A stretch of 21,851 nt of DNA, taken from the IMG/VR virus record IMGVR_UViG_2547132277_000002; one strand, 5' to 3'. A program made the position numbers and the translations under genes. Below, piece after piece: positions 2,443-20,518 of this stretch. Each line of letters starts with the position of its first letter. Position 1 is the stretch's first letter. The notes beneath the pieces are model-generated. The model saw nothing but the letters and a program-made list of their open reading frames with translations, was not told the DNA's origin and searched no databases. Origin of the DNA: a virus (lineage: Duplodnaviria > Heunggongvirae > Uroviricota > Caudoviricetes).

Positions 2443-2517
<75 letters not shown>

Positions 2518-2520
2518 ATA

Positions 2521-2596
<76 letters not shown>

Positions 2597-2598
2597 AC

Positions 2599-2675
2599 TG
2601 GACCGCCACCGGGGACTCGAACCTCGCACACTCAACTTAAAGAGTTGACGCTCTTTCCTGATGAGCTAGTGGCGG
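2599..2675 (-). tRNA. tRNA of uncertain identity (manual fold gives anticodon UUU, Lys-like, with atypical C at position 33)
   Basis: 77 nt, CCA encoded; acceptor CCGCCAC/GTGGCGG (C1-G72), D-arm GCTC-ATCAGGAAA-GAGC, anticodon stem TCAAC/GTTGA, loop UCUUUAA, T-loop TTCGAGT. Needs tRNAscan-SE. Confidence 0.5.
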
Positions 2676-2676
2676 T

Positions 2677-2752
2677 TGGTGGCCCTTGCTGGATTTGAAC
2701 CAGCGACCTGGCGATTATGAGTCGCTCGCTCTCACCACTGAGCTAAAGGGCC
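2677..2752 (-). tRNA. tRNA with CAU anticodon, ileX/ileZ-like (tRNA-Ile2; elongator Met not excluded)
   Basis: 76 nt, CCA encoded; GGCCCTTTAGCTCAGTGGTGAGAGC...CTCATAA...GGTTCAAATCC...AAGGGCCACCA closely resembles E. coli tRNA-Ile2 as recalled; anticodon loop CUCAUAA. Confidence 0.7.
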
Positions 2753-4545: not shown

Positions 4546-4902
4546 TTATGATAGAATCAAGCATATACATCCATCAATAAAGCCTAATGCAGTTTGCAGC
4601 TCCTTTCTTATAGTTCCATCTGAGCACCTGCGTTTCTTCGCGATTGAGCGTAGAGAAACACCAATAACAAAGTGAGCTATGAGCAGCTCATATTCCTCTG
4701 GTTTATACTTTCGCAACCGAGCCACACAACCGTCTATCATGATGCCTTCATCATCATCACACTGGAGACGTGACTTTTTGCCATGTGGCAAAAGCCTCTT
4801 GAAGCCCGCTGCTATCGGTTGCCAATCGACACCGCTATTTTCTGCTGCAGCCCATGCCCCCCAGCGATCTAAAACCTCATACATATCACGCCCCATTACC
4901 AT
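4546..4902 (-). CDS. Late-gene antiterminator Q (phage 21 / DLP12 QuuD-like family)
   Basis: 118 aa; motifs VLDRWGAWAA, IAAGFK, Cys-rich segments; conserved position downstream of rusA; resembles QuuD-type Q as recalled. Confidence 0.7.
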   Translation of the reverse strand: MVMGRDMYEVLDRWGAWAAAENSGVDWQPIAAGFKRLLPHGKKSRLQCDDDEGIMIDGCVARLRKYKPEEYELLIAHFVIGVSLRSIAKKRRCSDGTIRKELQTALGFIDGCICLILS

Positions 4903-5257
4903 CGCCTCTGATTTCGCAAATCTTCACGCCCAGCCGCCCACCAGGAACGAGCTGACCGCGCACAATATTGATTTCATCAAACTGCTCGTCGTCTATAAGT
5001 AGTCCGGCATGCGTCAGCGCATCCAGTGGTGCCTTCAGGATATTGTCCAGGTCGCGGCGGCGCTTATCCGGTGGCTCTGCAATCACCTTTATCGCCAGCC
5101 TTCCGGACAGGCTTAATTTCAGCCGCTGCTGGCGAACAATAAGCGCCACAGCCCGGCGATAACGCTTTCCCTCCTCCGAGATAAAATATGTGCTGCCACG
5201 GCGTCGCCAGTAAGTGTTCACCGTCGGCGGGTAAGGTAAAACCAAATCTATGAGCAT
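4886..5257 (-). CDS. rusA: Holliday-junction resolvase RusA
   Basis: 123 aa; PYPPTVNTYW... and RRRDLDN motif typical of RusA; nin-region position upstream of Q. Confidence 0.8.
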   Translation of the reverse strand: MLIDLVLPYPPTVNTYWRRRGSTYFISEEGKRYRRAVALIVRQQRLKLSLSGRLAIKVIAEPPDKRRRDLDNILKAPLDALTHAGLLIDDEQFDEINIVRGQLVPGGRLGVKICEIRGDGNGA

Positions 5258-5269
5258 CAGTCACCTCTT

Positions 5270-6319
5270 TTACCCAAGCACGCCAGTTGCAAAGGCGTGA
5301 TCAAGAAAACGAAAAATTAAATCAACCTGAGAACCATGCTTTTCTTCGAACGCCAGCGGATCCGCATGAAGCTCGTTGTGATGCTCCCGACACAGCGGTA
5401 GCGTGAAAATATCGTGAGATTTTGTCCCCATTCCGCCCTGACCATGACCAATCAGGTGATGGGGATCGTCGGCTGGCTTACCACAACACGCACACGGCTG
5501 TGTCTTCACCCAGCGAGTGTATTTCTCGTTAACCCAGCGGCGACGTTTAGGTCGTTTCATGAAAGATTCCGGAGACTCAGGATCAACGGCAATGCTGACC
5601 ACCGTCTTTTCCTGTGGTGGGTTCTGTTGCTGGTGGGCGTGAGGCAGCGGCGCAAGATTTTTTGTGCGCTGTTTCAGTATGCTGGTGGCGGTCTGCTCTC
5701 CCGGTACGATGTCGCTTTCACGGTACATGGAGCGGATTTTTTCCACACGCAACCCCAGCGAACGACGTAATACCGCTTCCGGTAGCGCGTCCGCCACCTG
5801 ATTGCGGACCGCCCACCAGGATAATTCAGCCAGAGATAATTCACGCTCCTGCGTACCGCTTATTGCGTGACCGATGACGTCAATCATCCATGCTGACAGG
5901 TTTTGATGAGCAAGTTGCTCGAGTGATTCGGATGTCTGGTCACGCAGCTGGTTGTCGCAGTGCCAGCACAACACCATTGCGCCGGTACCATAACGGTGAA
6001 TGACGGTTTCGCTGTGATGATAATCGCCGTGTGGCCACTGGCAGGATTTAATATGGCGCAACAGCCAGTCAGACAATGCACCAGCACCACCAGCAGCACG
6101 AATCACCCGCTCATCGCTGAAAAATGGCAGTAATGATTTATCCTCCGCCAGCGGCTGGCGAACGGCAGGAACGACCCCGGACGGCAGACCGCGCATGCTT
6201 TTTGGCTCCGGTTCAACCAGCACTCTGCCGTTATGGAATACCTGCATGGATTCACGACCTGGCTTAACGATAACCACCCCAAGTTCCGGCACCAGAACAG
6301 GTCGAAGTAATACCCGCAC
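5270..6319 (-). CDS. DUF968-family nin-region protein (YdfU-like)
   Basis: 349 aa; C-terminal Cys/His-rich block QPCACCGKPADDPHHLIGHGQGGMGTKSHD...CREHHNELH recalled as DUF968 of Qin-type prophages. Confidence 0.65.
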   Translation of the reverse strand: MRVLLRPVLVPELGVVIVKPGRESMQVFHNGRVLVEPEPKSMRGLPSGVVPAVRQPLAEDKSLLPFFSDERVIRAAGGAGALSDWLLRHIKSCQWPHGDYHHSETVIHRYGTGAMVLCWHCDNQLRDQTSESLEQLAHQNLSAWMIDVIGHAISGTQERELSLAELSWWAVRNQVADALPEAVLRRSLGLRVEKIRSMYRESDIVPGEQTATSILKQRTKNLAPLPHAHQQQNPPQEKTVVSIAVDPESPESFMKRPKRRRWVNEKYTRWVKTQPCACCGKPADDPHHLIGHGQGGMGTKSHDIFTLPLCREHHNELHADPLAFEEKHGSQVDLIFRFLDHAFATGVLG

Positions 6320-6694: not shown

Positions 6695-7816
6695 CTAGTG
6701 AATTTTGCCTCTAAGAGTTCGGTAAGATTGTAGTGAAACAACATCACCACTTCCTGGCAGTTCATGAACCGCAGGAAGATCATCTCCTACTAACTCATAA
6801 AAAATGTCCACTTCTATATCCATTTCATCAGCTATACGCTGTGGGTCGTATCCTAACTCTTCAAATAAAAACGATAAAGCCCGACGGAATAACTCAGGAC
6901 GCTCATGAGGGATTAGATAATCTTCTTTTTCATCAATAGCTTCCCCTTTCCGTTTCAACCCCATAAATGCAGTTCTGTACTGCTCATCAGTCAAAAGTCC
7001 TAATTGATGAGCCCTGTAAACAATGGCAGCCTTACTTACTTTCCATGTCAACTTAAATTGGCTTAGTCCCTGCCAATTTATCCTCCCCCCCACAGGTCTT
7101 GGAAAATATTTCGCCATCGACGTTCTGGGAAGCAACAGAGCAGAGGCAAAACGGTTTGCCTGGGATTCAGTTAATCTATCCCCAGTAGAAATTCCTTCAT
7201 GAAGAATCAAATGGGCAACCTCATGAGCAATATCAAAGCGTTGCCTACAAGGTGAATTTTTAGCTGTATTTCGAACAATAAAAGGCCTTCGTAGAGGAAC
7301 AGACAGTGCATCTACTTCATCCGAAACGGAGTCAAATGAAGTAACAAACGCCCCAAGTTTCTCGGCAAGGCGAGTCATATTTTCAATTGGGCCAAAGCCT
7401 AAGCCCCACTCAATACGACATTTTTCTGCCGCTCGCTCGATATCTTCTTGTGTATGGACACGAAATTCAGGAAATCGAACAGGTGACAAATTAAGGTTAT
7501 CTTCAAATACATCAATAAAACGACGATAAAACTCAGCCTTAGCGAGTGTTGATAGCTTCGTTGACATCCTTGTCGAGGCGCGTTTACGAAAATGTACAAT
7601 CTCTTCATTAACAGGAGAATGTTCCTGCCCTTCGAAAAAGGCGGGCTTCACGCGCAAAACCTCGGCTAATTTATTTATAAGCTCTGGGGATGGAGTAGCT
7701 GAACCAGACTCCAGTCGCTGTACATACTGGCGTGTTTTTTCAACCTTCTCAGCAACCTGCTCCAGAGATAGCTCGTGATACAGACGAGCAAGTCTTAAAT
7801 TAGTACCGTTAAACAC
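6695..7816 (-). CDS. Fused XRE-family HTH regulator / ImmA-IrrE (COG2856) zinc metallopeptidase
   Basis: 373 aa; N-terminal HTH LRLARLYHELSLEQVAEKVEKTRQYVQRLESG; HEXXH zinc motif in DIAHEVAHLILHEG; GTG start 11 nt after the upstream gene stop. Confidence 0.8.
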   Translation of the reverse strand: MFNGTNLRLARLYHELSLEQVAEKVEKTRQYVQRLESGSATPSPELINKLAEVLRVKPAFFEGQEHSPVNEEIVHFRKRASTRMSTKLSTLAKAEFYRRFIDVFEDNLNLSPVRFPEFRVHTQEDIERAAEKCRIEWGLGFGPIENMTRLAEKLGAFVTSFDSVSDEVDALSVPLRRPFIVRNTAKNSPCRQRFDIAHEVAHLILHEGISTGDRLTESQANRFASALLLPRTSMAKYFPRPVGGRINWQGLSQFKLTWKVSKAAIVYRAHQLGLLTDEQYRTAFMGLKRKGEAIDEKEDYLIPHERPELFRRALSFLFEELGYDPQRIADEMDIEVDIFYELVGDDLPAVHELPGSGDVVSLQSYRTLRGKIH

Positions 7817-7826
7817 ATTTCACCCA

Positions 7827-8420
7827 CTATTTGCTATTTTGTTTCTTTTCCTTCTCAGTCTTAGACGCACTGATAGGTTCTAGTTCGATAGGTACCGGTG
7901 CTGGAGGTACATCATCGACAGAGTTCAGCATAACAACACGGTCCGCACCATATGTCCAAGTTGACACGATCTCACCAAACACGTTATAGCCATTAAAAAT
8001 GACTCTACCACCCTCGCCTTCAAATTCAGGCTTTTCAACCACAAAGCGATGCATAGTTGGAGTAGTCTCCTCTGACTCAAAGAGTCGATCAGCATCATTT
8101 CTTTTGAAAAAACCGCGTTTCTTGGGGTTATCTGCGTCATCAGTAAAGAAACGAATAGGGACATTCCCAATTGAAAACGTAAGATCCATGCCAGGATTAA
8201 GTAGTCTTAACCAGTCATATGTCTTTCGTACGCACATTTGTAGCAACGCCTGCCGCTGACGCCCAAATGTACAACCACCACGAGTGTAATTATCATCATA
8301 GGGCGATGACAATAACTCATGAGTAATATCCTGTATCCTGAGCAACTCCTCAGCTATAATGGTTAAACGCACCTCTGTTAACTCAGGAAAGAACTCCCAA
8401 GGGAATGGATGGTTCTGCAT
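7827..8420 (-). CDS. Unknown protein, first gene of the two-gene cassette (197 aa from ATG 8420; ORF track extends to 8468)
   Basis: ATG at 8420 has GGAG 8 nt upstream; the longer start would overlap promoter-like TTGACA boxes. No recognisable domain. Confidence 0.55.
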   Translation of the reverse strand: MQNHPFPWEFFPELTEVRLTIIAEELLRIQDITHELLSSPYDDNYTRGGCTFGRQRQALLQMCVRKTYDWLRLLNPGMDLTFSIGNVPIRFFTDDADNPKKRGFFKRNDADRLFESEETTPTMHRFVVEKPEFEGEGGRVIFNGYNVFGEIVSTWTYGADRVVMLNSVDDVPPAPVPIELEPISASKTEKEKKQNSK

Positions 8421-8469
8421 AGACACTTCTCCGCCTAATCCGTGCAAAAAACGACTTTTGTCAACCAAG

Positions 8470-8498
8470 ATATTGGTGCATATTCATAATTTTGTCAA
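8470..8498 (-). promoter_or_regulatory. Possible promoter for the two-gene cassette (weak -10)
   Basis: Minus-strand TTGACA (plus 8493-8498) directly after the terminator T-run, 17-bp spacer, -10 CAATAT (3 of 6); a second TTGACA at plus 8459-8464. Confidence 0.3.
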
Positions 8499-8499
8499 C

Positions 8500-8523
8500 A
8501 AAAAAAAACCCCGCCGAAGCGGG
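8500..8523 (-). terminator. Rho-independent terminator upstream of the two-gene cassette (downstream of the ParA-like gene)
   Basis: CCCGC-CGAA-GCGGG stem at 8510-8523; on the minus strand followed by T9 (plus A-run 8500-8508). Hairpin nearly identical to the one at 6673-6690. Confidence 0.65.
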
Positions 8524-8870
8524 TTAAGTGCGGGTGCGTTGAGGATGCCTGACACATCAGAGGTGGCGAGGGATTTCTCCCTCGCCTGGTCTCTTACTCC
8601 TCAGGTTCGTAAGCTGTGAAGACAGCGACCTCCGTCTGGCCGGTTCGGATTCGTACCTCGCAGAGGTCTTTCCTCGTTATCAGTACCGCAACAATTTCGT
8701 ATTCATGATTCATTTCATCTAAAACAGTTCATAAACCTAAATAAATTCAAAAAATCACAACACAAATAAATATAAATTATCTCATCCTGAAGAACGATAG
8801 GATTATTTAGAATTAATAACAATTAATGTAACAATAATTATCAATCCAGATTATTCAAATAAAATGTCAT

Positions 8871-9917
8871 TTACCATATGGAGTTGTGAATGAACTTTAA
8901 TTCATTTTTTATTTTGTTAACAGATAAATTCACGGATGTCCTAACTCTATTCACAGTCATTGCATCTCCTGGATTTAACAACTCTAATGGTTTAGACTTA
9001 GCACTTGACATTCTGCCACTACCCAGAAAATCATCAAGAATCACAATGTGATTATTAGGATCATCTGTTGTAAAATTACTAATATTTTGTCGAATTACCT
9101 CTCTTACAGCTTCGATGTACATTTTTGTCTGTTGATTTGGTTTATTCCTTGCTCCTGCCACTGTTGACCATCCGCAATGGGTAATAACCACCATCTGAAT
9201 TTTTGGTGTATGGCCATCAGACGGCATTATCTTTCTAAATTCTGATGTTGGTTTAGTCAGAGTATCAATAAGTAATCTTAATGAATTAATCGATTGCTGA
9301 TCTGTCCTCACTGGAACTATTAAAGCATCTGTTGCATGCCAAGATAAATGCGTCGCTCCAGAGAAAAAAGGTGATGTATCAATTAACGCTTTTGTAGTAC
9401 CAGTTTCAACCATTTCTCTGGCTATTTCTTTCTTCAGAGAAAAAAGAATTGTATCAATAACAACCTGCTGAGTAGCCCCAGAAATTGTTCTGGCTTGAGC
9501 CAGAGCATTCGCCATTTGCGTAGGTAGAAGATAAAGTTGACTATCAGATTGAATAAAATAGTTATTCTTGCCCGCAAACCAAGCATTAGTTGATGATACT
9601 AGCTTTGCAGCACGCGTTGCAAATCCAAGCCCTGGAACAAAATAAGGCATTAAGAGGTCATTTGCAGTTGTGCTAGACGAAGATGCATAATTATTGTCAA
9701 AAAAATATGATAAATTTCCTTGCGGGCACGTATCCACGATTAATGCGTTATCCGCCAAATATGACAGATTAAAAGTTAAAGATGTCTTACCAATGCCTCC
9801 CCGTAAATTACATACTGTATATTTATCATATTTCGGCAAATTAAGACTTCTTACATTACCGTCAGCAACTTCGAATTGACGCTCTATCAGAGCATTAACA
9901 TTTGATTCACTAGTCAT
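8871..9917 (-). CDS. ParA/MinD-family (SIMIBI) P-loop ATPase-like protein, standalone, AT-rich
   Basis: 348 aa; deviant Walker A NLRGGIGKTS (Arg at the signature-Lys position), IVDTCPQGN (ParA DxDPQ-type motif), ALIDTSP Walker-B-like; sampled lines ~34% GC versus ~50-55% in the phage backbone. Confidence 0.65.
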   Translation of the reverse strand: MTSESNVNALIERQFEVADGNVRSLNLPKYDKYTVCNLRGGIGKTSLTFNLSYLADNALIVDTCPQGNLSYFFDNNYASSSSTTANDLLMPYFVPGLGFATRAAKLVSSTNAWFAGKNNYFIQSDSQLYLLPTQMANALAQARTISGATQQVVIDTILFSLKKEIAREMVETGTTKALIDTSPFFSGATHLSWHATDALIVPVRTDQQSINSLRLLIDTLTKPTSEFRKIMPSDGHTPKIQMVVITHCGWSTVAGARNKPNQQTKMYIEAVREVIRQNISNFTTDDPNNHIVILDDFLGSGRMSSAKSKPLELLNPGDAMTVNRVRTSVNLSVNKIKNELKFIHNSIW

Positions 9918-10401: not shown

Positions 10402-10857
10402 CTAAGCGCCATGATTTCCCTCATGCACAACCTGTTCACCGAATGTCTCTCGAAAACCATTCTGGTAAAATGCCAGTACACGCTGCATAGCTTCGCTCTT
10501 CCGGCACTCGCGACAGATTATGTTCTGACGCCTGTCGTAGCGACGTATTTCTCCGTCAGGTAATGACCAGATAAGGTCCGGATCAACCGCAGATGGTTTC
10601 TTCAGCTTTGCCCTTGAGAGCTTTTTACGGGCATTTTGCCAGTCCTTACGCGCCTGTTCAGACGGGAATAACCCGTAACCAGAGTTGTATACATCGCCAC
10701 TGGCAACCAGCTCTCTGGCCAGAACGCTCATCAGATATCTTGTTGCCCCAGTTTTAGTTTCCAGTTGTCGTAACGTCTCGCGCCCACTCTGGCGTACGAG
10801 TTCAACAACCTGCCCTTTAATTTTTTCCCGCTCTTCTTGTGTAAAAACTTTTGCCAC
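10402..10857 (-). CDS. Hypothetical phage protein downstream of the replication initiator
   Basis: 151 aa; GTG start with strong SD AGGAGGG 4 nt upstream; no assignable motif. Confidence 0.5.
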   Translation of the reverse strand: MAKVFTQEEREKIKGQVVELVRQSGRETLRQLETKTGATRYLMSVLARELVASGDVYNSGYGLFPSEQARKDWQNARKKLSRAKLKKPSAVDPDLIWSLPDGEIRRYDRRQNIICRECRKSEAMQRVLAFYQNGFRETFGEQVVHEGNHGA

Positions 10858-10897: not shown

Positions 10898-11968
10898 TTA
10901 CCCCCTGAAGCCCGGCGGAATTTCGTTATCCGGTTCAGAAATATGATTCACACAACGCTGGTTGTTCGTGCCGCTTACCGGGAGCAACCAGGGGTTCTCA
11001 AAATTCCGGTCCGGTCCAAAAAACGTCGTCGCTCGCTGAACAAATTCCGTTCCCGTTTTCCCGGTAGCCGCCAAGTATCTTGCGTAACGCCTCACGCCAT
11101 CCAGCATGGCCTCTGGTGGCACCCCCTCGCGTAATCTGGCCTTCCAGGCACTGAAAGCGGATTTCTTCGGGTTTGCCCCGGCACGCAACGGGTATTCCCG
11201 CCAGACCTGTTCGAACACATCAGGATAATCCACTCGTCCCACAGGCTGCCCGGTGTTTTCCGGGACTACCCGATCGGCTTCCCGCTGAATGGCGGAATCG
11301 GCTTCAGGCTGCTGAAGTTGGTGTGATTGCTCCTGCCTTGCGGTCATCACCTGCTGCACAGCGCCCGAATCGGCTTTCAGCGCATACGCTGAATCGGCTT
11401 CCGGTGTCGTGCCTGCGGGCTGGCCAGGAGTGACGGTCTGAACATCCCCTGCCTGGTTCGTGGCGTTTTTTACGCCATGGACCATAGTGTTTTGATCTTC
11501 TTGATCTGTATCTTTATCTGTATCTTTATCTGTCGTGACTCGTCGTGACATGTGCGTGACATTTCGTGACTCGCCGTGACAATCGCCATTTTGTTCCCGC
11601 TTTCTTTCCCTCTCTCGCTGCGCCCTCTTGCGCTCTGCCGGAGATTTTGCGGTTTGCGAAATATTGCCGTTGTCCTCTTTCAGCACCTGGCGTTTTTCCC
11701 ATCCAGTGATTAAATCACCATCAAGTACCCGCCCCTGCATCGTCTGCAAAATTGAATCAATTACCTCTTCTGTCACGTCGAGCGCACTTGCCAAATCTTC
11801 TGTCGTGACATCAATGTGACCTCGCGTGACATTTCGTGACGCGCTCACCAGGAGGTGGATATACACTGCCATCACTGTTGCAATTGGCTGCCCTGACACC
11901 CTGGCAATTGTTCGCCACTTAGGGTCATTTGGCATGTCATGCCATAATCTGAGCCAGGCGTTAGCCAT
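10898..11968 (-). CDS. Replication initiation protein (lambda O-like organiser N-terminus, DnaT-like C-terminus) with internal iterons
   Basis: Probable start ATG 11968 (SD GAGG 5 nt upstream; ORF-track GTG at 11974); acidic DKDTDKDTD linker; C-terminal YPLRAGANPKKSAFSAWKARL recalled as DnaT-like; position after the cII-like gene. Confidence 0.65.
   Translation of the reverse strand: MANAWLRLWHDMPNDPKWRTIARVSGQPIATVMAVYIHLLVSASRNVTRGHIDVTTEDLASALDVTEEVIDSILQTMQGRVLDGDLITGWEKRQVLKEDNGNISQTAKSPAERKRAQRERERKREQNGDCHGESRNVTHMSRRVTTDKDTDKDTDQEDQNTMVHGVKNATNQAGDVQTVTPGQPAGTTPEADSAYALKADSGAVQQVMTARQEQSHQLQQPEADSAIQREADRVVPENTGQPVGRVDYPDVFEQVWREYPLRAGANPKKSAFSAWKARLREGVPPEAMLDGVRRYARYLAATGKTGTEFVQRATTFFGPDRNFENPWLLPVSGTNNQRCVNHISEPDNEIPPGFRG
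11509..11532. repeat. 12-bp tandem direct repeat TATCTTTATCTG x2 (encodes DKDT repeats on minus strand)
   Basis: Exact duplication at 11509-11520 and 11521-11532, immediately adjacent to the iteron array. Confidence 0.7.
11534..11580. repeat. Iteron array: five CGTGAC repeats at 10-11 bp spacing (candidate replication origin)
   Basis: CGTGAC at 11534, 11544, 11555, 11565, 11575 (plus strand), inside the replication gene as in lambda ori. Confidence 0.55.
11773..11840. repeat. Second cluster of CGTGAC / GTCACG motifs
   Basis: GTCACG at 11773; CGTGAC at 11804, 11825, 11835; degenerate TGTGAC at 11815; 10-11 bp spacing. Confidence 0.4.
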
Positions 11969-12039
11969 ACTCACCTCTTTTGATACCGAATCTTTTTACT
12001 CACAAATTGCCGGAAGTGATCCGGTATGAATATTGCGAG

Positions 12040-12465
12040 TCAATGCACAGCCACAATATTTCCTGCAGGGCCACCACGATTCATCTGGTTGAAACCAGCG
12101 ATCGCCACTGCGACAAAATCATCAGCGTCTCTCACCAGTCGTTCCCGCGTCTCCACTAGTTCCCGAAAATACGCTGAGCTATGACTGCGCATTCGGGCCA
12201 CCAGCAGAGGTGGCATTGCTTTTTCGATAGCTGGTAACAACGCCTGAATTTTTTTAACCGCATCAGGGGTGTCTTTCTCCACCCAGCGGAAAATTTTCTG
12301 AGTATTGCGAGCCAGGGCTTCCGGATGGCTGTCGTCATACAGTTCCGGGAACGTCATTCCCAGCTCGAAATACGCTTTGGTAATTTTCGCAGCCGGTACT
12401 TTTTCGCCGTCCGGATGCGCCCAGGCATTCATCGCCATGCGGATGTGTTCATGCTTGATTTTCAT
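12040..12465 (-). CDS. YdaT-like (cII-type) regulator of Rac-like prophages
   Basis: 141 aa beginning MKIKHEHI and ending VH, as recalled for Rac YdaT; start overlaps the stop of the upstream Cro-like gene (ATGA). Confidence 0.65.
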   Translation of the reverse strand: MKIKHEHIRMAMNAWAHPDGEKVPAAKITKAYFELGMTFPELYDDSHPEALARNTQKIFRWVEKDTPDAVKKIQALLPAIEKAMPPLLVARMRSHSSAYFRELVETRERLVRDADDFVAVAIAGFNQMNRGGPAGNIVAVH

Positions 12466-12716
12466 GAATCAACTCCCATCAGCTTTTTCGTAGTAGTTTT
12501 ATTCCTGCCAATAGTTAAAATTGCATCGGCAGAAAATAATCCGTTTGATGCAAGAGCGATTTTTTCAGCGTAATTTGTTTCGCCGGTATATTCTGTGCGA
12601 GGCAATTTTCCGTTATCCATCCATTTATAGATTGCTCTTTGGCTGACACCACAAACGTCGGCCACAACAGCAACGCGAACAGTTTTGATTACATCTTCAA
12701 GTGTTTTCTGGTTCAT
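12462..12716 (-). CDS. Cro-like HTH regulator (YdaS family)
   Basis: Probable start ATG 12716 (SD GAGGGTG 4 nt upstream), 84 aa; HTH VADVCGVSQRAIYKWMDNGKLP; divergent from the repressor gene. ORF-track start 12788 lies in the operator region. Confidence 0.65.
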   Translation of the reverse strand: MNQKTLEDVIKTVRVAVVADVCGVSQRAIYKWMDNGKLPRTEYTGETNYAEKIALASNGLFSADAILTIGRNKTTTKKLMGVDS

Positions 12717-12795
12717 ATCACCCTCACAATGTGAACTTTGAGTACATGCCATAACAGAACTGACAGTACATTCAAGAGCGAATATCATTGAACTT
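12717..12795. promoter_or_regulatory. Divergent promoter/operator region (OR-like) between Cro-like and repressor genes
   Basis: Two AGTACAT motifs (12741-12747, 12765-12771) and inverted repeat TGAAC-TTATG-GTTCA (12789-12803) spanning the repressor start codon. Confidence 0.5.
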
Positions 12796-13215
12796 ATGGT
12801 TCATGAAGATAAAGCGCGTAAAGAGTTCGCCAGTAGGCTTGCGCTAGCCTGTGAAAACGCTGGTTATGAACAACATGGAAGGCAGGCAGAAATTGCCCGT
12901 CGAATGAAATTAACACCAAAAGCGGTTAGCAAATGGTTTAATGGCGAAACAATTCCTCGCCGGGAGAAATTAAGGGAATTAGCAACACTAATAGGAACAA
13001 CACCAACCTATCTTTTGGGAGAGGATACAGAAGAAAGTGGACAGGTACGTTTCTATCAGGAGTTAAATCCAAGACAAAAAATCATCATTGACCTTCTGGA
13101 CGAGCTCCCTGACAGTGAGACAGATGAACTTTTAAAAACTCTTGAAGAGAAAAAACAGAAGTACAATGCAATTTACGAAGAGTTAGCACGAAAGAAAAAA
13201 CAAAAAGCCTCTTAA
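12796..13215 (+). CDS. Prophage repressor, HTH-only (RacR/CI-like; no LexA-type autopeptidase domain)
   Basis: 139 aa; HTH GRQAEIARRMKLTPKAVSKWFNGE; same strand as the early-left genes and int; divergent from the Cro-like gene. Confidence 0.65.
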   Translation: MVHEDKARKEFASRLALACENAGYEQHGRQAEIARRMKLTPKAVSKWFNGETIPRREKLRELATLIGTTPTYLLGEDTEESGQVRFYQELNPRQKIIIDLLDELPDSETDELLKTLEEKKQKYNAIYEELARKKKQKAS

Positions 13216-14654: not shown

Positions 14655-15047
14655 TTCACCCTCCTGAGGGTTGGTAATTAAGGAGTTCTCCACGGGTCAG
14701 GTGGAGTGCGTGCGCCGGACACGGGTGAGCATCCGGCACTGGCAGTTTACTGGAAGGATATATCCCTGAAAAGTCAGGACATAACGCGAAAGCGCACGGC
14801 GAAGTTATTCTGTCTGTACGGTGTCGTTAAATTTAATTCGACCGTGCGCTTCCGGTTGTGGCAATCCGCGAAATGGCGCGGCGGTAAGTATGGCGGGGTT
14901 ATTCCTTCCCCGTTGAGGACACCGGGTTGTCAGGTTGACCATACGCTTAAGTGACAACCCCGCTGCAACGCCCTCTGTTATCAATTTTCTGGTGGCGTTT
15001 AGCGGTATCAGTTTTACTCCGTGACTGCTCTGCCGCCCTTTTTAAAG

Positions 15048-15681: not shown

Positions 15682-18153
15682 ATGAGTAAAGTCTTTATTT
15701 GCGCCGCCATTCCGGACGAACAGGCAATAAAGGAAGAAGGTGCAGTCGCTGTAGCCACTGCCATTGAAGCCGGTGATGAACGTCGCGCCCGCGCAAAATT
15801 TCACTGGCAATTCCTGGAGCATTATCCGGCTGCTCAGGACTGCGCTTATAAATTTCTTGTTTGCGAGGATAAACCCGGTATATCCCGCCCTGCCCTCGAT
15901 TCCTGGGATGCTGAATATATGCAGGAAAACCGCTGGGATGAGGAGTCTGCTTCCTTTGTCCCGGTTGAGACTGAATCAGATCCGATGAACGTCACTTTTG
16001 ACAAGCTGACCCCTGAAGTACAGAACGCTGTCATGGTTAAGTTCGACACATGTGAAAACATCACCGTTGATATGGTGATTAGCGCGCAGGAATTGTTGCA
16101 GGAAGACATGGCAACATTCGACGGACATATCGTTGAAGCGTTGATGAAAATGCCAGAAGTTAACGCCATGTATCCAGAACTTAAGTTGCATGCCATCGGG
16201 TGGGTTAAGCATAAATGTAAGCCTGGAGCTAAATGGCCCGAAATTCAGGCAGAGATGCGCATCTGGAAAAAACGTCGCGAAGGTGAACGCAAGGAAACCG
16301 GAAAATACACGTCTGCTGTTGATCTCGCCCGCGCCAGAGTCAACCGACAGCACACTGAAAACTCAGCAGAAAATATCTCCCCTGTCACTGCAGTCATTCA
16401 TCGCGAATACAAGCAGACATGGAAAACACTGGATGACGAACTGGCCTACGCTCTCTGGCCTGGTGATGTGGATGCCGGAAACATTGACGGCAGCATCCAT
16501 CGCTGGGCAAAAAATGAAGTTATCGACAACGACCGCGAAGACTGGAAGCGTATCTCGGCATCGATGCGCAAACAGCCTGATGCCCTTCGCTACGACCGCC
16601 AGACTATTTTTGGCCTTGTCCGTGGACGTCCGATCGACATTCACAAAGATCCTGTGGCACTGAACAAATACATTACTGAATACCTGACTACAAAGGGCGT
16701 GTTTGAAGATGAAGGAACAAATCAGAGCGCAACTGATACTCTCTCGTCGCCAGTACCAGAAACTGATGCAGTGGAAACGGCAATTCCGGACAACGAAAAA
16801 ACCGAATGCAAAGTGGAAGTCGAACCATCTGTAGAACGTGAGGGGCCGTTCTACTTCCTCTTCACCGACAAGGATGGCGAAAAATACGGTCGCGCAAACA
16901 AACTTTCTGGTCTGGATAAGGCGCTGGCTGCCGGGGCTACTGAAATCACGAAAGAAGAATATTTCGCCCGCAAAAACGGTACATACTCAGGTTTACAACA
17001 AAATACTGGTGCATCTGACACGACCGCACAACCAGAGCCGGTAAAAGTTACCGCTGACGAAGTAAACAAAATTATGCAGGCAGCCAATATCAGCCAGCCT
17101 GACGCCGATGAACTGCTTGCAGTATCACGTGGTGAATTTGTTGCAGGGATTAGCGATCCGAATGATCCGAAATGGGTGAAGGGGATTGAAACCCGCGATT
17201 CTGTGAACCAGAACCAGCAAGAAACGGAACAGAACGACCAGAAAGCGGAACAAAACAGCCCAAATGTGCAACGAAAAGAGCCAAAAACGAAACAATCCGA
17301 ACCAGTAGCGCAACAGGAACCGGAAAAAGTCTGCACCGTCTGCGGTCAGAGCGGTGGCGGCAACTGCCCTGATTGTGGCGCGGTGATGGGCGACGCAACA
17401 TACCAGGAAACATTCGATGACGAGAACCAAGTTGAAGTTCAGGAAGACGATTCGGAGGAAATGGAAGGCGCTGAACATCCACACAAGGAGAATGCTGGCA
17501 GCGCTCAGGACCACGCCAGCGATAATGAAACTGGCGAGGCGACAGATCTCTTAATTAAGGCGAACGGTCATCATAATCTCACATCCACCAGCAGAGCGGG
17601 GATTCATCTGATGATCGACCTTGAAACCATGGGAAAAAATCCCGATGCCCCGATTATCTCAATAGGCGCAATATTTTTCGATCCACAAACCGGAGATATG
17701 GGACCGGAATTTAGCAAGACCATCGATCTGGATACTGCTGGCGGAGTCATTGATCGTGACGTCATTAAATGGTGGCTGAAGCAATCACGTGAAGCGCAGT
17801 CTGCCATTATGACCGATGAAATCCCGTTAGATGATGCACTACTGCAATTGCGGGAATTTATCGACGAAAACTCCGGTGAATTTTTTGTTCAGGTCTGGGG
17901 AAATGGAGACAACTTCGACAACGTGATTTTACGCCGCTCATACGAACGACAGGGGATCCCCTGCCCGTGGCGCTACTGCAACGATCGCGATGTACGCACA
18001 ATCGTTGAATTAGGAAAAGCCCTGGACTTCGATGCCAGAACGGCTATTCCATTCGAAGGTGAGCGCCATAATGCACTTGATGACGCTCGTTACCAGGCAA
18101 AATACATTTCAGCTATCTGGCAAAAACTGATCCCGAGTCAGGCTGATTTTTAA
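15682..18153 (+). CDS. RecE-like large exonuclease: central C4 zinc finger and C-terminal DEDDh 3-prime to 5-prime exonuclease domain
   Basis: 823 aa; segment ELLAVSRGEFVAGISDPNDPKWVKGIETRD resembles RecE as recalled; CTVCGQSGGGNCPDCG zinc finger; C-terminal Exo I DLE (MIDLETMG), Exo II NGDNFDNVIL, Exo III HNALDDA. Confidence 0.7.
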   Translation: MSKVFICAAIPDEQAIKEEGAVAVATAIEAGDERRARAKFHWQFLEHYPAAQDCAYKFLVCEDKPGISRPALDSWDAEYMQENRWDEESASFVPVETESDPMNVTFDKLTPEVQNAVMVKFDTCENITVDMVISAQELLQEDMATFDGHIVEALMKMPEVNAMYPELKLHAIGWVKHKCKPGAKWPEIQAEMRIWKKRREGERKETGKYTSAVDLARARVNRQHTENSAENISPVTAVIHREYKQTWKTLDDELAYALWPGDVDAGNIDGSIHRWAKNEVIDNDREDWKRISASMRKQPDALRYDRQTIFGLVRGRPIDIHKDPVALNKYITEYLTTKGVFEDEGTNQSATDTLSSPVPETDAVETAIPDNEKTECKVEVEPSVEREGPFYFLFTDKDGEKYGRANKLSGLDKALAAGATEITKEEYFARKNGTYSGLQQNTGASDTTAQPEPVKVTADEVNKIMQAANISQPDADELLAVSRGEFVAGISDPNDPKWVKGIETRDSVNQNQQETEQNDQKAEQNSPNVQRKEPKTKQSEPVAQQEPEKVCTVCGQSGGGNCPDCGAVMGDATYQETFDDENQVEVQEDDSEEMEGAEHPHKENAGSAQDHASDNETGEATDLLIKANGHHNLTSTSRAGIHLMIDLETMGKNPDAPIISIGAIFFDPQTGDMGPEFSKTIDLDTAGGVIDRDVIKWWLKQSREAQSAIMTDEIPLDDALLQLREFIDENSGEFFVQVWGNGDNFDNVILRRSYERQGIPCPWRYCNDRDVRTIVELGKALDFDARTAIPFEGERHNALDDARYQAKYISAIWQKLIPSQADF

Positions 18154-18404: not shown

Positions 18405-18908
18405 TTACTGATAGTGTTTTATGTTCAGATAATGCCCGATGACCTTGTCATGCAGCTCCACCGATTTTGAGAACGACAGTGACTTCCGTCCCAGCCTTGC
18501 CAGATGTTGTCTCAGATTCAGATTATGTCGCTCAATGCGCTGAGTGTAACGCTTGCTGATAACGTGCAGCTTTCCCTTCAGGCGTGATTCATACAGCGGC
18601 CAGCCATCCGTCATCCATACCACGACCTCAAAGGCCGACAGCAGGCTCAGAAGACGCGCCAGTGTGGCCAGAGTGCGTTCACCGAAAACGTGCGCCACAA
18701 CTGTCCTCCGTATCCTGTCATACGCGTAAAACAGCCAGCGCTGACGTGATTTAGCACCGACGTAGCCCCACTGTTCGTCCATTTCCGCGCAGACAATCAC
18801 ATCACTGCCCGGTTGTATGCGCGAGGTTACCGACTGCGGCCTGAGTTTTTTAAGTGACGTAAAACCGTGTTGAGGCCAACGCCCATAATGCGGGCAGTTG
18901 CCCGGCAT
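18405..18908 (-). CDS. insB: IS1 InsB frame (expressed as the InsAB-prime transposase by -1 frameshift)
   Basis: 167-aa ORF overlapping the insA 3-prime end in the -1 frame, as in IS1. Confidence 0.85.
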
Positions 18909-19102
18909 CCAACGCCATTCATGGCCATATCAATGATTTTCTGGTGCGTACCGGGTTGAGAAGCGGTGTAAGTGAACTGCAGTTGCCATGTTTTACGGCA
19001 GTGAGAGCAGAGATAGCGCTGATGTCCGGCGGTGCTTTTGCCGTTACGCACCACCCCGTCAGTAGCTGAACAGGAGGGACAGCTGATAGAAACAGAAGCC
19101 AC
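18827..19102 (-). CDS. insA: IS1 InsA
   Basis: 91-aa [48 protein letters not shown]..., zinc-finger/HTH protein of IS1. Confidence 0.9.
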
Positions 19103-19229: not shown

Positions 19230-20348
19230 ATGTCACCGAGGCCACGAAAAAACAGCACTGACGTAGCCGGTCTTTACGAAAAGTTTGATCGCAGAACTGG
19301 CAGAGTTTACTACCAGTATAAAAATCCTGTGACTGGAAAATTTCACGGACTAGGAACAGACAAAGGTAAGGCAGAAAAAATCGCTTCCACAGCCAATCAG
19401 CGAATAGCTGCAGCAGAAGCTGAATATTTCATGCGTAAAATTGATGAAAGTCCGTCAGCAACAAAACGTCGGGGTATCAGATTAAAGGCATGGGTTGATC
19501 GATATCTGAAAATACAGGACACGCGACTGAAAAATGGAGATATTGCAGCTACAACTCACAAAGAAAAAGCTCGAATGGCTGCATACCTGGTTTCCCGTCT
19601 GGGAAACCACCCATTGAAAGAACTGGAAGTAAGAGACTTTGCATTAATACTGGATGAGTGGCTGGATAAAGACATGGTCAGCACAGCGAGAGTAAATCGC
19701 GGATTATGGGTTGATATTTATAAAGAAGCACAGCATGCAGGGGAAGTTCCTCCTGGATGGAATCCTCCGGAGGCTACCCGTAAACCGATCCCTAAAGTAA
19801 CCAGAGCCAGGCTCACCATGGAAGACTGGCAAAAAATTTACAATGCAACGCCTGAAAAACACTTTATCCGTAACGCAATGCTTCTTGCGATTGTTACTGG
19901 TCAGCGCCGTGATGACATTTGCCACATGCGTTTTTCAGATGTGTGGAACGAACACTTGCATATCACCCAGGGAAAAACCGGAATGCGTCTGGCGTTACCG
20001 CTTACACTACGCTGTGATGCCATTGGGATAACGTTAAAAGAAGTTATTGATGGGTGCCGAGACAGAATATTAAGTCCATATCTAATCCATAGTCGGCACC
20101 AGAAACAACCGAAGCCGATGAGTAAAGACAACCTGAGCGACTACTTTGCCAAAGCACGGGATCTGGCTGGGATAATTCCACCAGCAGGAAAAACTCCGCC
20201 AACATTTCATGAACAACGCTCTCTATCAGAACGGCTGTACCGTGCACAGGGTATCGATACAAAAACATTACTAGGACATAAAGTCCAGGCAACCACCGAT
20301 CGCTATAACGATACTCGAGGTCAGGAATGGGTTAAGTTGGTTATTTGA
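19230..20348 (+). CDS. int: Tyrosine-family phage integrase
   Basis: 372 aa; C-terminal catalytic region LLGHKVQATTDRYNDTRGQEW (His...Tyr) like lambda Int; preceded by xis; 3-prime end faces the potB/potC junction. Confidence 0.85.
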   Translation: MSPRPRKNSTDVAGLYEKFDRRTGRVYYQYKNPVTGKFHGLGTDKGKAEKIASTANQRIAAAEAEYFMRKIDESPSATKRRGIRLKAWVDRYLKIQDTRLKNGDIAATTHKEKARMAAYLVSRLGNHPLKELEVRDFALILDEWLDKDMVSTARVNRGLWVDIYKEAQHAGEVPPGWNPPEATRKPIPKVTRARLTMEDWQKIYNATPEKHFIRNAMLLAIVTGQRRDDICHMRFSDVWNEHLHITQGKTGMRLALPLTLRCDAIGITLKEVIDGCRDRILSPYLIHSRHQKQPKPMSKDNLSDYFAKARDLAGIIPPAGKTPPTFHEQRSLSERLYRAQGIDTKTLLGHKVQATTDRYNDTRGQEWVKLVI

Positions 20349-20518
20349 CAAACACCATATGGAATATCCGTCACCATCTCAGGAAAAAAGTGTTGTAAAA
20401 TGCGTGGCCTAGTTTTGGGGAAACGTTTTGGAGAGATTTTGGAGAAAGGAAAAAATTGAATAAATTCAAAATCCTGAAAGTGTCCCGCCTTATGAATAAG
20501 AAGGTGGAACTCGAATGA
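20349..20518 (+). other. Prophage-chromosome junction: att region plus potB 3-prime remnant (reads ...[11 protein letters not shown]-stop, overlapping potC ATG)
   Basis: In-frame segment ending at TGA 20516-20518 overlaps the potC start exactly as a native potB terminus would; direct repeat TTTTGGAGA x2 at about 20425-20444 may be Int arm-type sites. Core boundary not resolvable without the other junction. Confidence 0.4.

What the first reader, a model, noticed from the sequence alone, without database searches (positions are those of the whole stretch)
11500..11840. Two iteron clusters and an adjacent 12-bp tandem repeat embedded in the replication initiator gene
Five CGTGAC repeats at helical (10-11 bp) spacing (11534-11580) sit next to a duplicated TATCTTTATCTG and an AT-rich stretch, resembling the lambda origin inside gene O. 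A second, partly inverted cluster lies ~270 bp away (11773-11840). Two arrays in one gene is unusual and could reflect origin duplication or a bipartite origin.
Basis: partly seen in the sequence, partly recalled or inferred. Interest (0 to 1): 0.4.

Follow-up and report, generated by a model that had tools for sequence, protein, structure and literature searches.

The report
Two-part replication origin inside initiator gene
An E. coli prophage carries its likely replication origin inside its own initiator gene, and besides the usual block of protein-binding repeats it has a second, evolutionarily conserved block of the same repeats 260 bp away, a layout I could not find described for this untested phage family.

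Summary
On the coding (-) strand, GTCACG occurs five times at 10-11 bp spacing (11534-11580). It occurs four more times (one GTCACA variant) at 11804-11840, with one inverted copy at 11772-11777. Nine of the window's 15 exact matches lie in 307 bp. Next to the first array are three 12-bp A-rich repeats (28.6% GC).

The gene (10898-11974, -) encodes a phage replication initiator with a winged-helix N-domain. It is not a lambda O homologue.

Comparative evidence shows that both arrays are selected as DNA:
- The cores fall in all three codon phases.
- In 23 homologues at 65-100% amino-acid identity, synonymous sites are frozen only inside the cores.
- In distant homologues the core changes (GTAACG, CGAACG, GCAACG, GTGACG), and it changes in both arrays together.
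- Extra copies are carried as loop insertions in the protein.
- One clade has its second array in a different loop.
- About 15 of 78 loci have only the linker array.

Best reading: a lambda-style in-gene origin made of the linker array plus AGAnnn-repeat unwinding element, with an auxiliary initiator-binding array. It is bipartite, not a duplicated origin. Binding, origin activity and the role of the second array are untested. This is a new variant of a known kind, of moderate interest.

The parts
10898..11974 (-). Replication initiator gene (358 aa) that contains every element listed below.
   Evidence: ORF. It matches phrog_3729 'replication initiation protein' at E 7e-257. No Pfam family reaches its threshold. 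Near-identical genes in phages are annotated 'DNA replication protein O', 'Primosomal protein I' or 'replisome organiser'.
11684..11974 (-). Coding region for the N-terminal winged-helix domain (aa 1-97), the presumed iteron-binding domain.
11804..11840 (-). Array 2: four direct iterons with cores at 11835-11840, 11825-11830, 11815-11820 (GTCACA variant) and 11804-11809. They are spaced 10, 10 and 11 bp and encode aa 45-58, the end of helix 31-47 and the loop before the helix-turn-helix.
   Evidence: Synonymous sites within the cores are invariant in 23 homologues. The same core is found in array 1 of each homologue.
11772..11777 (+). Single inverted iteron core, 33 bp downstream (in the gene's direction) of array 2.
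   Evidence: An inverted copy at the equivalent gene position (192) occurs in many GTCACG-class loci. The third position of the Val codon here has entropy 0.51 bit, against about 1.8 bits at other conserved Val codons.
11534..11580 (-). Array 1: five direct iterons (GTCACG) spaced 10, 10, 11 and 10 bp, in the linker-coding part of the gene (aa 132-147). This is the presumed core initiator-binding site of the origin.
   Evidence: This array is present in essentially every homologue where any array is detectable, including the loci that have only one array.
11485..11533 (-). A-rich hexamer/12-mer repeats (ACAGATAAAGAT and relatives; on the + strand TCTTTATCTGTA x3 at 11499-11534). This is the presumed DNA unwinding element.
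   Evidence: The stretch is 28.6% GC with 71% purines on the coding strand, and it is the GC minimum of the gene. AGAnnn repeats follow the last iteron in all iteron classes and host GC contents, with mean GC 0.39 against 0.57 for the gene. GAT and ACA codons here are invariant at the third position.
11454..11484 (.). Imperfect palindrome (13-nt arms, 5-nt loop) just beyond the A-rich repeats. It may belong to the origin.
   Evidence: As single-stranded DNA it folds at -8.7 kcal/mol, z = -2.4. Its conservation outside close relatives was not established.
10901..10972 (-). Coding region for the last 24 aa, which resemble the C-terminus of host DnaT. This may be the link to the host helicase-loading machinery.
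   Evidence: NCBIfam PRK02854 matches aa 335-358 at E 7e-4. The tail also matches PDB DnaT chains: 6aep (E 0.003, aa 335-358) and, more weakly, 9zbt (E 0.073, aa 338-358). No helicase or loader gene lies in the module.

Best explanation
**What it is.** This is the replication origin of a lambdoid E. coli prophage, embedded in the gene of its own initiator protein.

**The core origin.** It has the layout known from lambda. An array of five short iterons (core GTCACG, one per helical turn) sits in the part of the gene that encodes the flexible linker. It is followed directly by an A-rich run of AGAnnn hexamer repeats, which would serve as the unwinding element, and then by a palindrome.

**The second array.** About 260 bp upstream, inside the part of the gene that encodes the winged-helix domain, lies a second array. 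It has four iterons in the same orientation plus one inverted copy.

**How it most likely works (inferred).**
- The N-terminal domain of the initiator binds the cores of both arrays as monomers lined up on one face of the helix.
- Protein-protein contacts between the two loaded arrays loop or wrap the roughly 220 bp between them.
- The resulting complex opens the A-rich repeats next to array 1.
- The C-terminal domain, which ends in a DnaT-like tail, brings in the host helicase machinery, because the module encodes no helicase or loader.

**Shown versus inferred.** Shown here: the anatomy, DNA-level selection on both arrays, and co-variation of the two arrays with each other across the initiator family. 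Inferred: binding by the initiator, origin activity, looping, and whether array 2 stimulates or restrains initiation.
For: 1. Clustering and helical spacing are real.
2. The cores occupy codon phases 1, 2 and 3, so they are not amino-acid repeats.
3. In 23 genes at 65-100% amino-acid identity, from Enterobacteria, Pseudomonas, Bordetella, Chromobacterium and others, synonymous sites show the constraint. Third-position entropy is 1.5-1.95 bits at conserved four-fold codons elsewhere, but 0-0.5 bit at the codons inside the array 2 cores. Spacer codons are free at 1.75-1.99 bits.
4. The core differs between lineages (GTCACG, GTAACG, CGAACG, GCAACG, GTGACG), and each element has the same core in both arrays.
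5. Of 47 loci with a phased array in the linker zone, 38 have the same hexamer at least twice in the N-domain zone. None of the 47 do in either of two control zones of equal size: 134 copies against 3 and 5.
6. The GTAACG loci L109 and L111 are nested among GTCAC loci in the tree, and both of their arrays have switched.
7. Both arrays share an extended consensus, g-n-n-r-t-GTCAC-G-m.
8. Extra iterons are carried as insertions in a protein loop. L168 has 10-11 copies carried as a 24-aa insertion. One clade places its second array in a different loop.
9. Shigella phage 75/02 Stx has the same C-terminal domain but a different N-domain, and it has no GTCACG. The only gene common to all these loci is the initiator itself.
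10. AGAnnn repeats with low GC follow the linker array in all classes.
11. A complete phage genome has no other cluster.
12. There are precedents for in-gene origins made of repeats plus an unwinding element: lambda (PMC7466680), SPP1 oriL in gene 38 (PMC5737612) and phage L gene 18, which has six 11-bp repeats (PMC8022706).
Against: - There is no experimental evidence of binding, unwinding or origin activity for any member of this family. I found none in the held literature.
- The N-domain reaches no Pfam threshold. Its closest structural relative with a replication role, the DnaD N-terminal domain, is an oligomerisation domain rather than a sequence-specific binder (the functional point is from my own knowledge). 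Which part of the protein reads the core is therefore unknown.
- The distance between arrays varies from 189 to 350 bp and shows no 10.5-bp phasing (R = 0.20). This does not favour a rigid loop.
- Fifteen of 78 loci manage with one array, so array 2 is not essential to the family's mechanism.
- The tree used to infer gains is a crude neighbour-joining tree without support values.
Confidence: 0.7

Rival explanations
1. Array 2 is a control element, not part of the initiating machinery. It would hold the initiator away from the core origin, pair ('handcuff') origins, or block transcription through the initiator's own gene. This would limit initiation, as the accessory iteron clusters of RK2 oriV, P1 incA or F incC do. 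The reading accepts array 1 as the origin and differs only in the sign of array 2's effect.
For: - Array 2 lies outside the iterons-plus-unwinding-element unit. It is on the side away from the A-rich repeats and has no A-rich element of its own.
- It is dispensable in 15 of 78 family members.
- Its distance from array 1 is variable and unphased.
- Copy number varies widely, from 2 to 11, as would be expected for a titrating element.
- It sits 135-203 nt into the initiator's own reading frame, so a bound array could obstruct transcription from the early promoter (inference).
- The accessory clusters of RK2, P1 and F are recalled from my own knowledge and were not checked here.
Against: - A lytically replicating phage has less obvious need for copy-number control than a plasmid does.
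- Array 1, which is also in the gene, could already act as a roadblock.
- The additional iterons of Stx phage origins are needed for efficient replication rather than being inhibitory (PMC7466680).
- No computation available here separates a positive from a negative role.
Confidence: 0.3
2. The second array marks a duplicated, independent second origin. The gene would then contain two origins, each able to fire.
For: - A 39-nt stretch of array 1 aligns with array 2 at 72% identity, and an 11-mer (TCTGTCGTGAC) is identical at both sites.
- The last iteron of both arrays is followed by ACAGA.
- These matches are compatible with array 2 having arisen by duplication of array 1.
Against: - Array 2 has no A-rich or AGAnnn repeat element next to it. 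The interval between the arrays is 49% GC and array 2 itself is 52% GC. In contrast, such an element follows array 1 in every iteron class.
- The control zones show no arrays downstream of the unwinding element.
- Any duplication would be ancient, because the two-array layout is shared across orders of Proteobacteria.
Confidence: 0.05
3. The repeats are a by-product of the encoded protein (repeated Val-Thr and Ser-Arg-Asn-Val-Thr peptides) or a chance cluster, with no function as DNA.
For: - The peptides SRNVT and VTT occur in both regions of the protein.
- The amino acids encoded across array 2 are conserved.
Against: - The cores lie in all three codon phases.
- Four-fold degenerate third positions are invariant only within the cores.
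- The core changes in both arrays together across lineages, and the peptide changes with it.
- Chance expectation is 0.12 copies in 307 bp, against 9 observed.
Confidence: 0.02
4. The arrays are real functional sites, but they are read by something other than the initiator: another phage DNA-binding protein, a host factor, or the mRNA.
For: - Binding has not been shown.
- The module encodes other helix-turn-helix proteins: the Cro-like protein at 12462-12788 and the DUF977 protein at 10402-10857.
- The model's presumed recognition helix (aa 69-79, EEVIDSILQTM) is acidic and hydrophobic. That is not typical of a base-reading helix (my reading).
Against: - The neighbouring genes differ completely among loci that share the arrays: helicase, DnaB, DUF977, different Cro and cI genes. 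The initiator N-domain is the only constant partner.
- Swapping the N-domain removes the motif.
- A core that differs between related elements argues against a conserved host factor.
- Spacing of 10-11 bp fits recognition on one face of duplex DNA rather than an RNA feature.
Confidence: 0.06

Closest known systems
Bacteriophage lambda ori within gene O (and its relatives in Stx phages)
   Same: - The origin lies inside the initiator gene, in the part that encodes the linker between the DNA-binding and C-terminal domains.
- An iteron array is followed, in the direction of the gene, by an AT-rich, purine-skewed stretch (PMC7466680).
- The linker peptide is rich in Asp, Lys, Thr and Glu as a consequence.
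- The gene order is immunity region, then Cro-like gene, then initiator.
   Different: - The protein is not an O homologue: there is no Phage_rep_O match.
- The iterons are 10-11 bp direct repeats with a 6-bp core, not roughly 19-bp units with internal symmetry.
- No P-type or DnaC-type loader gene follows.
- Lambda has one array, whereas this gene has a second array 260 bp upstream inside the DNA-binding-domain coding region.
Bacillus phage SPP1 replisome organiser G38P and oriL in gene 38
   Same: - SPP1 has a non-AAA+ 'replisome organiser' initiator whose origin (repeats plus an adjacent unwinding element) is embedded in its own gene. The protein also binds a second site, oriR (PMC5737612).
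- NCBI names close homologues of the window protein 'phage replisome organizer'.
- The weak Pfam hit is to Phage_rep_org_N.
   Different: - Sequence similarity is below threshold (12.8 bits against a cut-off of 23.3).
- The second G38P site, oriR, is a separate region of the SPP1 genome (PMC5737612), far from gene 38 as I recall it. Here both arrays are within 310 bp of one gene, and a complete related phage has no other cluster.
- SPP1 encodes its own helicase and loader.
Accessory iteron clusters of iteron plasmids (RK2 oriV 5+3+1 iterons; P1 incC/incA; F incB/incC). Recalled from my own knowledge, not checked here.
   Same: A main iteron cluster lies next to the unwinding element, and a second cluster of the same iterons lies at a distance. 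Both are bound by the same initiator. This is the closest analogue for two clusters on one side of the unwinding element.
   Different: - Those iterons are 17-22 bp and are bound by RepA-type two-winged-helix proteins.
- The accessory clusters lie outside the rep coding sequence.
- Their role in copy-number control is established, whereas here the role is unknown.
SaPI replication origins of Staphylococcus aureus pathogenicity islands
   Same: The iterons are short, penta- or hexanucleotide, read by a winged-helix domain and arranged in two sets (PMC9371898).
   Different: - The two SaPI sets flank the AT-rich region and point in opposite directions.
- They lie downstream of rep.
- The SaPI initiator is itself a helicase.
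- In this window both arrays are on the same side of the A-rich element, mostly in the same orientation, and inside the gene.
Salmonella phage L gene 18
   Same: Six imprecise 11-bp repeats inside the initiator gene are proposed as its origin (PMC8022706). The short helical-period repeat style is the same.
   Different: - It is not a detectable homologue: there was no Salmonella phage hit in tblastn with the N-domain.
- A single array is described.
- That origin is likewise only predicted.

Membership tests
Lambda O / ori-lambda type origin | The initiator is a homologue of lambda O (Pfam Phage_rep_O N-terminal domain). | tested here: not met
   No Phage_rep_O hit appears even at E up to 10. 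The 'protein O' annotations in phage records are names only.
Lambda O / ori-lambda type origin | The origin lies inside the initiator gene, as iterons followed by an AT-rich region. | tested here: met
   Array 1 is at 11534-11580, in the linker-coding part. It is followed by 11485-11533 at 28.6% GC. The layout is conserved in homologues.
Lambda O / ori-lambda type origin | Four or more iterons of roughly 19 bp with internal dyad symmetry, each bound by an O dimer. | tested here: not met
   The units are 10-11 bp direct repeats with an asymmetric 6-bp core and no internal dyad.
Lambda O / ori-lambda type origin | A partner helicase-loader gene (P or DnaC type) lies immediately downstream. | tested here: not met
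   The downstream genes are DUF977 and a ParA-like ATPase. The complete phage Evi has no helicase or loader annotated.
Phage replisome organiser (Phage_rep_org_N; SPP1 G38P type) | The N-terminal domain matches Pfam PF09681 above its threshold. | tested here: not met
   The score is 12.8 bits against a cut-off of 23.3, E 0.12. None of 54 homologues matches at E 0.01 or better.
Phage replisome organiser (Phage_rep_org_N; SPP1 G38P type) | A winged-helix N-domain of the DnaD or organiser kind. | tested here: inconclusive
Phage replisome organiser (Phage_rep_org_N; SPP1 G38P type) | The origin (repeats plus unwinding element) is embedded in the organiser's own gene. | tested here: met
   The precedent is described in PMC5737612.
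Phage replisome organiser (Phage_rep_org_N; SPP1 G38P type) | The protein binds the repeats specifically and recruits a helicase. | not testable with these tools
   Only indirect evidence is available: the core co-varies with the N-domain lineage, and the motif is lost when the N-domain is swapped.
Iteron-regulated replicons with accessory iteron clusters (RK2, P1, F) | A second cluster of the same iterons lies apart from the minimal origin. | tested here: met
   Array 2 has the same core and the same extended consensus as array 1, and lies 189-350 bp away across the family.
Iteron-regulated replicons with accessory iteron clusters (RK2, P1, F) | A RepA-type (WH1-WH2) initiator and 17-22 bp iterons. 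| tested here: not met
   No Rep_3 or RepA family hit was found. The iteron period is 10-11 bp.
Iteron-regulated replicons with accessory iteron clusters (RK2, P1, F) | The accessory cluster lowers initiation frequency. | not testable with these tools
   This needs genetics: recoding or deletion of array 2.
SaPI-type origins | Two sets of short iterons flank the AT-rich region in opposite orientations, downstream of rep. | tested here: not met
   Both arrays are upstream of the A-rich element, in the same orientation, and inside the gene. No array lies beyond the A-rich element in any of 47 loci.

The most novel reading that the evidence does not exclude
The second array may be a repeatedly acquired, DNA-level adaptation that makes the initiator act preferentially in cis. 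Transcription and translation are coupled in bacteria. The winged-helix domain therefore emerges from the ribosome while the polymerase is only a few hundred base pairs further along the same gene. An array of binding sites written into the coding sequence of that very domain would capture the nascent protein on the genome that encodes it, and would hand it to the main array 260 bp away. If so, this would explain why origins sit inside initiator genes at all. It would also explain why the protein tolerates loop insertions of up to 24 residues whose only apparent purpose is to carry more sites.
Probability: 0.1. Interest if true: 0.75.

Novelty: new variant of a known kind. Interest (0 to 1): 0.45.

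Why it matters
- **An untested initiator family.** This family is common. At least 80% of the 3.3-kb module is present in 327 of 5,426 complete E. coli genomes, and the protein database holds 912 clusters. It spreads across Proteobacterial prophages, yet none of its members has been studied experimentally.
- **A ready-made map.** The comparative data give a map of its origin and a natural experiment: members with one array versus members with two.
- **A clean overlapping code.** A protein's binding sites are written into the coding sequence of that protein's own winged-helix domain, the presumed DNA-binding domain. Synonymous sites are frozen, and the protein's loops stretch to hold more sites.
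- **A direct experiment.** The cores can be removed by synonymous recoding, so the role of the second array can be tested without touching the protein. That test would also bear on the old question of why phage origins sit inside initiator genes.
- **Practical uses.** The core hexamers predict replication-specificity (incompatibility) groups among these prophages. The conserved two-array signature could help annotate origins.

Tried and rejected
1. **IMG/VR scan.** The scan with the N-domain alignment returned only near-identical E. coli prophage copies. It was useful only to show that copy number is stable, with (4,5) cores in 76 of 80 loci. Diversity came from the genome collection instead.
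2. **Does array 2 encode the recognition helix?** I tested whether a change of iteron would change the protein's specificity in the same step.
   - In the model the encoded peptide (aa 45-58) is the end of helix 31-47 and the loop before the helix-turn-helix, not the third helix.
   - In one-array members with the same core, the residue after the invariant Arg-Gly varies freely.
   - The idea is therefore not supported, though a DNA contact by this loop is not excluded.
3. **Helical phasing between the arrays.** None was found at 10.5 bp (R = 0.20). The apparent signal at 10.0 bp reflects related sequences that share the same distance.
4. **Promoter or terminator between or within the arrays.** The number of promoter-like and terminator-like sites in the scanned 1.6-kb region was not above that in shuffled sequence.
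5. **A third array elsewhere.** There is none in the window, none in a complete 40-kb phage genome, and none within 1.5 kb of the one-array genes.
6. **Pfam assignment of the N-domain.** There is none for the query or for 54 homologues.
7. **Literature searches** for a description of this origin or family found nothing specific. The Pf-5 and Francisella phage papers that mention iterons concern other elements.
8. **DnaT preprimosome paper.** I read it to see what the DnaT-like tail might contact. It describes the DnaT C-terminal domain docking on PriA and forming filaments on single-stranded DNA, but it does not single out the last 24 residues.
Full report
**1. What is in the sequence.**

The finding lies inside one ORF, 10898-11974 on the - strand, 358 aa. 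On the coding strand the hexamer GTCACG occurs at gene positions 395, 405, 415, 426 and 436. That is window 11580-11534, here called array 1. It also occurs at positions 135, 145 and 166, with a GTCACA variant at 155. That is window 11840-11804, array 2. One inverted copy lies at 198-203 (window 11772-11777).

Nine of the 15 exact matches in the window fall within 307 bp, where about 0.12 are expected. The Poisson P is about 1.6e-14. A 39-nt stretch of array 1 aligns with array 2 at 72% identity, and an 11-mer is identical at both sites.

Directly after array 1, in the direction of the gene, come three copies of a 12-mer. It reads TCTTTATCTGTA on the + strand and ACAGATAAAGAT on the coding strand, at 11499-11534. 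The stretch 11485-11533 is 28.6% GC with 71% purines on the coding strand. It is the GC minimum inside the gene.

Next comes an imperfect palindrome at 11454-11484, which folds at -8.7 kcal/mol with z = -2.4.

**2. Context.**

The window is the left arm of a lambdoid prophage in E. coli. It is 100% identical to several complete genomes. At least 80% of the 3.3-kb replication and immunity segment is present in 327 of 5,426 complete genomes. The map is as follows:

| Coordinates | Feature |
|---|---|
| from 20515 | host permease gene |
| 19230-20348 | integrase |
| 18405-19102 | IS1 |
| 15682-18153 | exonuclease |
| 14987-15038 | DicF sRNA |
| 12796-13215 | cI-like repressor |
| 12462-12788 | Cro-like gene |
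| 12040-12465 | YdaT-family gene |
| 10898-11974 | the initiator |
| 10402-10857 | DUF977 |
| 8871-9917 | ParA-like ATPase |
| 6695-7816 | HTH-M78 peptidase protein |
| 5270-6319 | DUF968 |
| 4886-5257 | RusA |
| 4546-4902 | antiterminator Q |
| 2443-2752 | four tRNAs |
| 1111-1560 | lysozyme |

**3. The protein.**

It matches phrog_3729 'replication initiation protein' over its full length (E 7e-257). Its C-terminal half matches families annotated as DnaD-like helicase loader or primosomal protein. No Pfam family reaches threshold. Phage_rep_org_N scores 12.8 bits against a cut-off of 23.3, and there is no lambda O match.

The last 24 residues resemble the C-terminus of host DnaT. Neither the window nor the complete genome of the 98.6% identical phage Evi encodes a helicase or loader. 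The initiator must therefore recruit host proteins; this is an inference.

**4. Are the repeats selected as DNA?** Three independent lines say yes.

- **Codon phase.** The cores occupy all three codon phases, so they are not the image of an amino-acid repeat.
- **Synonymous sites.**
  - I built a codon alignment of 23 genes sharing the GTCACG core. They are 65-100% identical in protein and come from hosts ranging from about 41 to 67% GC.
  - Third positions of conserved four-fold codons elsewhere are saturated, at 1.5-1.95 bits.
  - The codons inside the array 2 cores are invariant or nearly so: Ala43 0.51, Ser44 0.26, Asn46 0.26, and Val47, Thr48, Gly50, His51, Val54 and Thr55 all 0.00.
  - The spacer codons between cores are free: Arg49 1.75 and Ile52 1.99.
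  - The same holds for array 1 and for the GAT and ACA codons of the A-rich repeats.
- **Co-variation.**
  - Pseudomonas phage phita81A and Aeromonas phage pAEv1818 have an N-domain about 70% identical. Both arrays and the inverted copy sit at the same places in them.
  - More distant relatives have a different core, and each has the same core in both arrays. The Manatee Spring phage has CGAACG. Ralstonia phage Hennie has GCAACG.
  - I then took 78 usable loci from one-genome-per-species scanning. Forty-seven have a helically phased hexamer array in the linker zone.
  - Of those 47, 38 carry the same hexamer at least twice in the N-domain zone, and two more carry it inverted.
  - None of the 47 carries it twice in either of two equal-sized control zones. 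The totals are 134 copies against 3 and 5.
  - The two arrays also share an extended consensus, g-n-n-r-t-GTCAC-G-m.
  - Shigella phage 75/02 Stx shares the C-terminal domain at 82% DNA identity but has an unrelated N-domain. It has no GTCACG at all.
  - The neighbouring genes differ among these loci, so the initiator N-domain is the only constant partner of the arrays.

**5. How the protein accommodates array 2.**

In the window, array 2 encodes residues 45-58. This is the end of helix 31-47 and the loop that precedes the helix-turn-helix, around an invariant Arg-Gly.

Where a lineage has more copies, the protein has an insertion at exactly that point:
- about 7 residues in Pantoea L109 and Erwinia L113;
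- 8 residues in Cupriavidus and Burkholderia;
- 24 residues in Pseudomonas sp. PA15, which has 10-11 copies.

In a Xanthomonadales clade the second array sits in a different loop, between the second and third helices. There it is carried by an 8-residue insertion.

A neighbour-joining tree of the N-domains is crude and has no support values. It gives 42 loci with the array in the second loop, 7 with it in the first, 15 with the linker array only, and 14 unclear. The single-array loci form clades that are sister to two-array clades.

The linker array is therefore the universal element. The second array has been gained, or lost, more than once, at two different protein positions. The GTAACG loci are nested among GTCAC loci, and both of their arrays have switched.

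**6. The A-rich repeats.**

After the last linker iteron, every iteron class has four to eight hexamer repeats of the form AGAnnn: AGATAA, AGATAC, AGAGAA, AGAGGA or AGAGAC. This holds even in hosts of 60-69% GC. Mean GC over the next 48 nt is 0.39, against 0.57 for the gene. This is the position and composition of the unwinding element in lambda and SPP1 (PMC7466680, PMC5737612). Nothing of the kind follows array 2.

**7. Interpretation.**

The best-supported reading is an in-gene origin whose core is array 1, the AGAnnn repeats and perhaps the palindrome. A second array of initiator-binding sites lies about 260 bp upstream.
A duplicated second origin is unlikely because array 2 lacks an unwinding element.
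- One core per helical turn implies monomers aligned on one face of the DNA.
- Two loaded arrays could be bridged by oligomerisation of the DnaD-like domain, looping the intervening DNA.
- The inter-array distance ranges from 189 to 350 bp without 10.5-bp phasing, so any loop is not rigid.
- Whether array 2 helps initiation or restrains it cannot be decided here, and I give the two comparable weight. Helping would match the extra iterons of Stx phage origins, which are required for efficient replication (PMC7466680). Restraining would match the accessory iteron clusters of RK2, P1 and F, which I recall from my own knowledge.
- Binding, unwinding and origin function are all inferred.

**8. Comparison with known systems.**

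It works like the lambda origin, but it is not a member of that family:
- the protein is unrelated;
- the iterons are short direct repeats rather than 19-bp dyads;
- there is no loader gene.

It is closest in kind to the replisome-organiser origins exemplified by SPP1 oriL in gene 38, although sequence membership is below threshold. Short hexanucleotide iterons read by a winged helix recall SaPI origins, but there the two sets flank the AT-rich region in opposite orientations (PMC9371898). Phage L gene 18, with six 11-bp in-gene repeats, is a stylistic precedent but not a detectable homologue (PMC8022706).

I found no paper describing this family's origin or a second in-gene array. The held library is incomplete, so absence there is not proof.

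**9. Verdict.**

This is a new variant of a known kind. Interest is moderate. The origin itself is what a specialist would expect. The conserved, co-varying and independently placed second array, written into the coding sequence of the initiator's own winged-helix domain, is not what a specialist would expect. It can also be tested cleanly by synonymous recoding.

Noticed in passing
window 14987-15038 (+): A full-length match to the DicF antisense sRNA (Rfam RF00039, 68.6 bits against a gathering score of 48) lies in the early-left region of the prophage.
   Followed up: no
window 2443-2752 (-): The prophage carries a cluster of four tRNA genes (Gly-TCC, Thr-TGT, Lys-TTT, Met-CAT) between the Q antiterminator region and the lysis genes.
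   Followed up: no
window 18405-19102 (-): IS1 transposase ORFs are inserted between the prophage exonuclease gene (15682-18153) and the integrase (19230-20348). A host ABC-transporter permease gene starts at 20515, so the prophage end lies at about 20.4-20.5 kb.
   Followed up: no
window 10901-10972 (-); locus L169 (phage Evi, whole genome): The last 24 residues of the initiator resemble the C-terminus of host DnaT. Twelve of 54 homologues carry a full Pfam DnaT DNA-binding domain at their C-terminal end. No helicase or loader gene is present in the module or in the complete phage Evi genome. This suggests an initiator that borrows the host restart and primosome route.
   Followed up: partly
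window 11454-11484: An imperfect palindrome (13-nt arms, 5-nt loop) lies immediately beyond the A-rich repeats, where lambda ori also has a palindrome (the lambda point is from my own knowledge). On the + strand it also looks like a terminator for antisense transcription. Its fold is only modestly better than shuffled sequence (z = -2.4).
   Followed up: partly
loci L089-L168, about 330-560 nt into each gene: The AGAnnn hexamer repeats after the linker array are conserved across all iteron classes and host GC contents. Their third codon positions are fixed (always GAT and ACA, even in high-GC hosts). They may be a specific single-strand binding element rather than merely AT-rich DNA.
   Followed up: partly
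locus L168 (Pseudomonas sp. PA15), gene positions 146-239: An expanded second array of 10-11 GTGACG copies is carried as a 24-residue insertion in the protein loop. This is the most extreme case of the protein stretching to hold binding sites.
   Followed up: partly
locus L144 (Lysobacter sp.) and L142 (Ferrovibrio MAG): In these two loci the second array is inverted relative to the linker array, so the relative orientation of the two arrays is not absolutely fixed in the family.
   Followed up: no
window 6695-9917 (-): Downstream of the replication module are three genes: an orphan ParA-like ATPase (8871-9917), an unknown 213-aa protein (7827-8468), and an HTH plus M78-peptidase (ImmA/IrrE-like) protein (6695-7816). 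This may be a cargo or defence island. No ParB or centromere-like repeats were seen.
   Followed up: no
protein database hits: Many database copies of this initiator are 'partial' proteins that end at contig edges, and some clusters hold hundreds to over a thousand member sequences. The gene appears to be a frequent assembly break point in E. coli draft genomes, probably because several related prophages share it.
   Followed up: no
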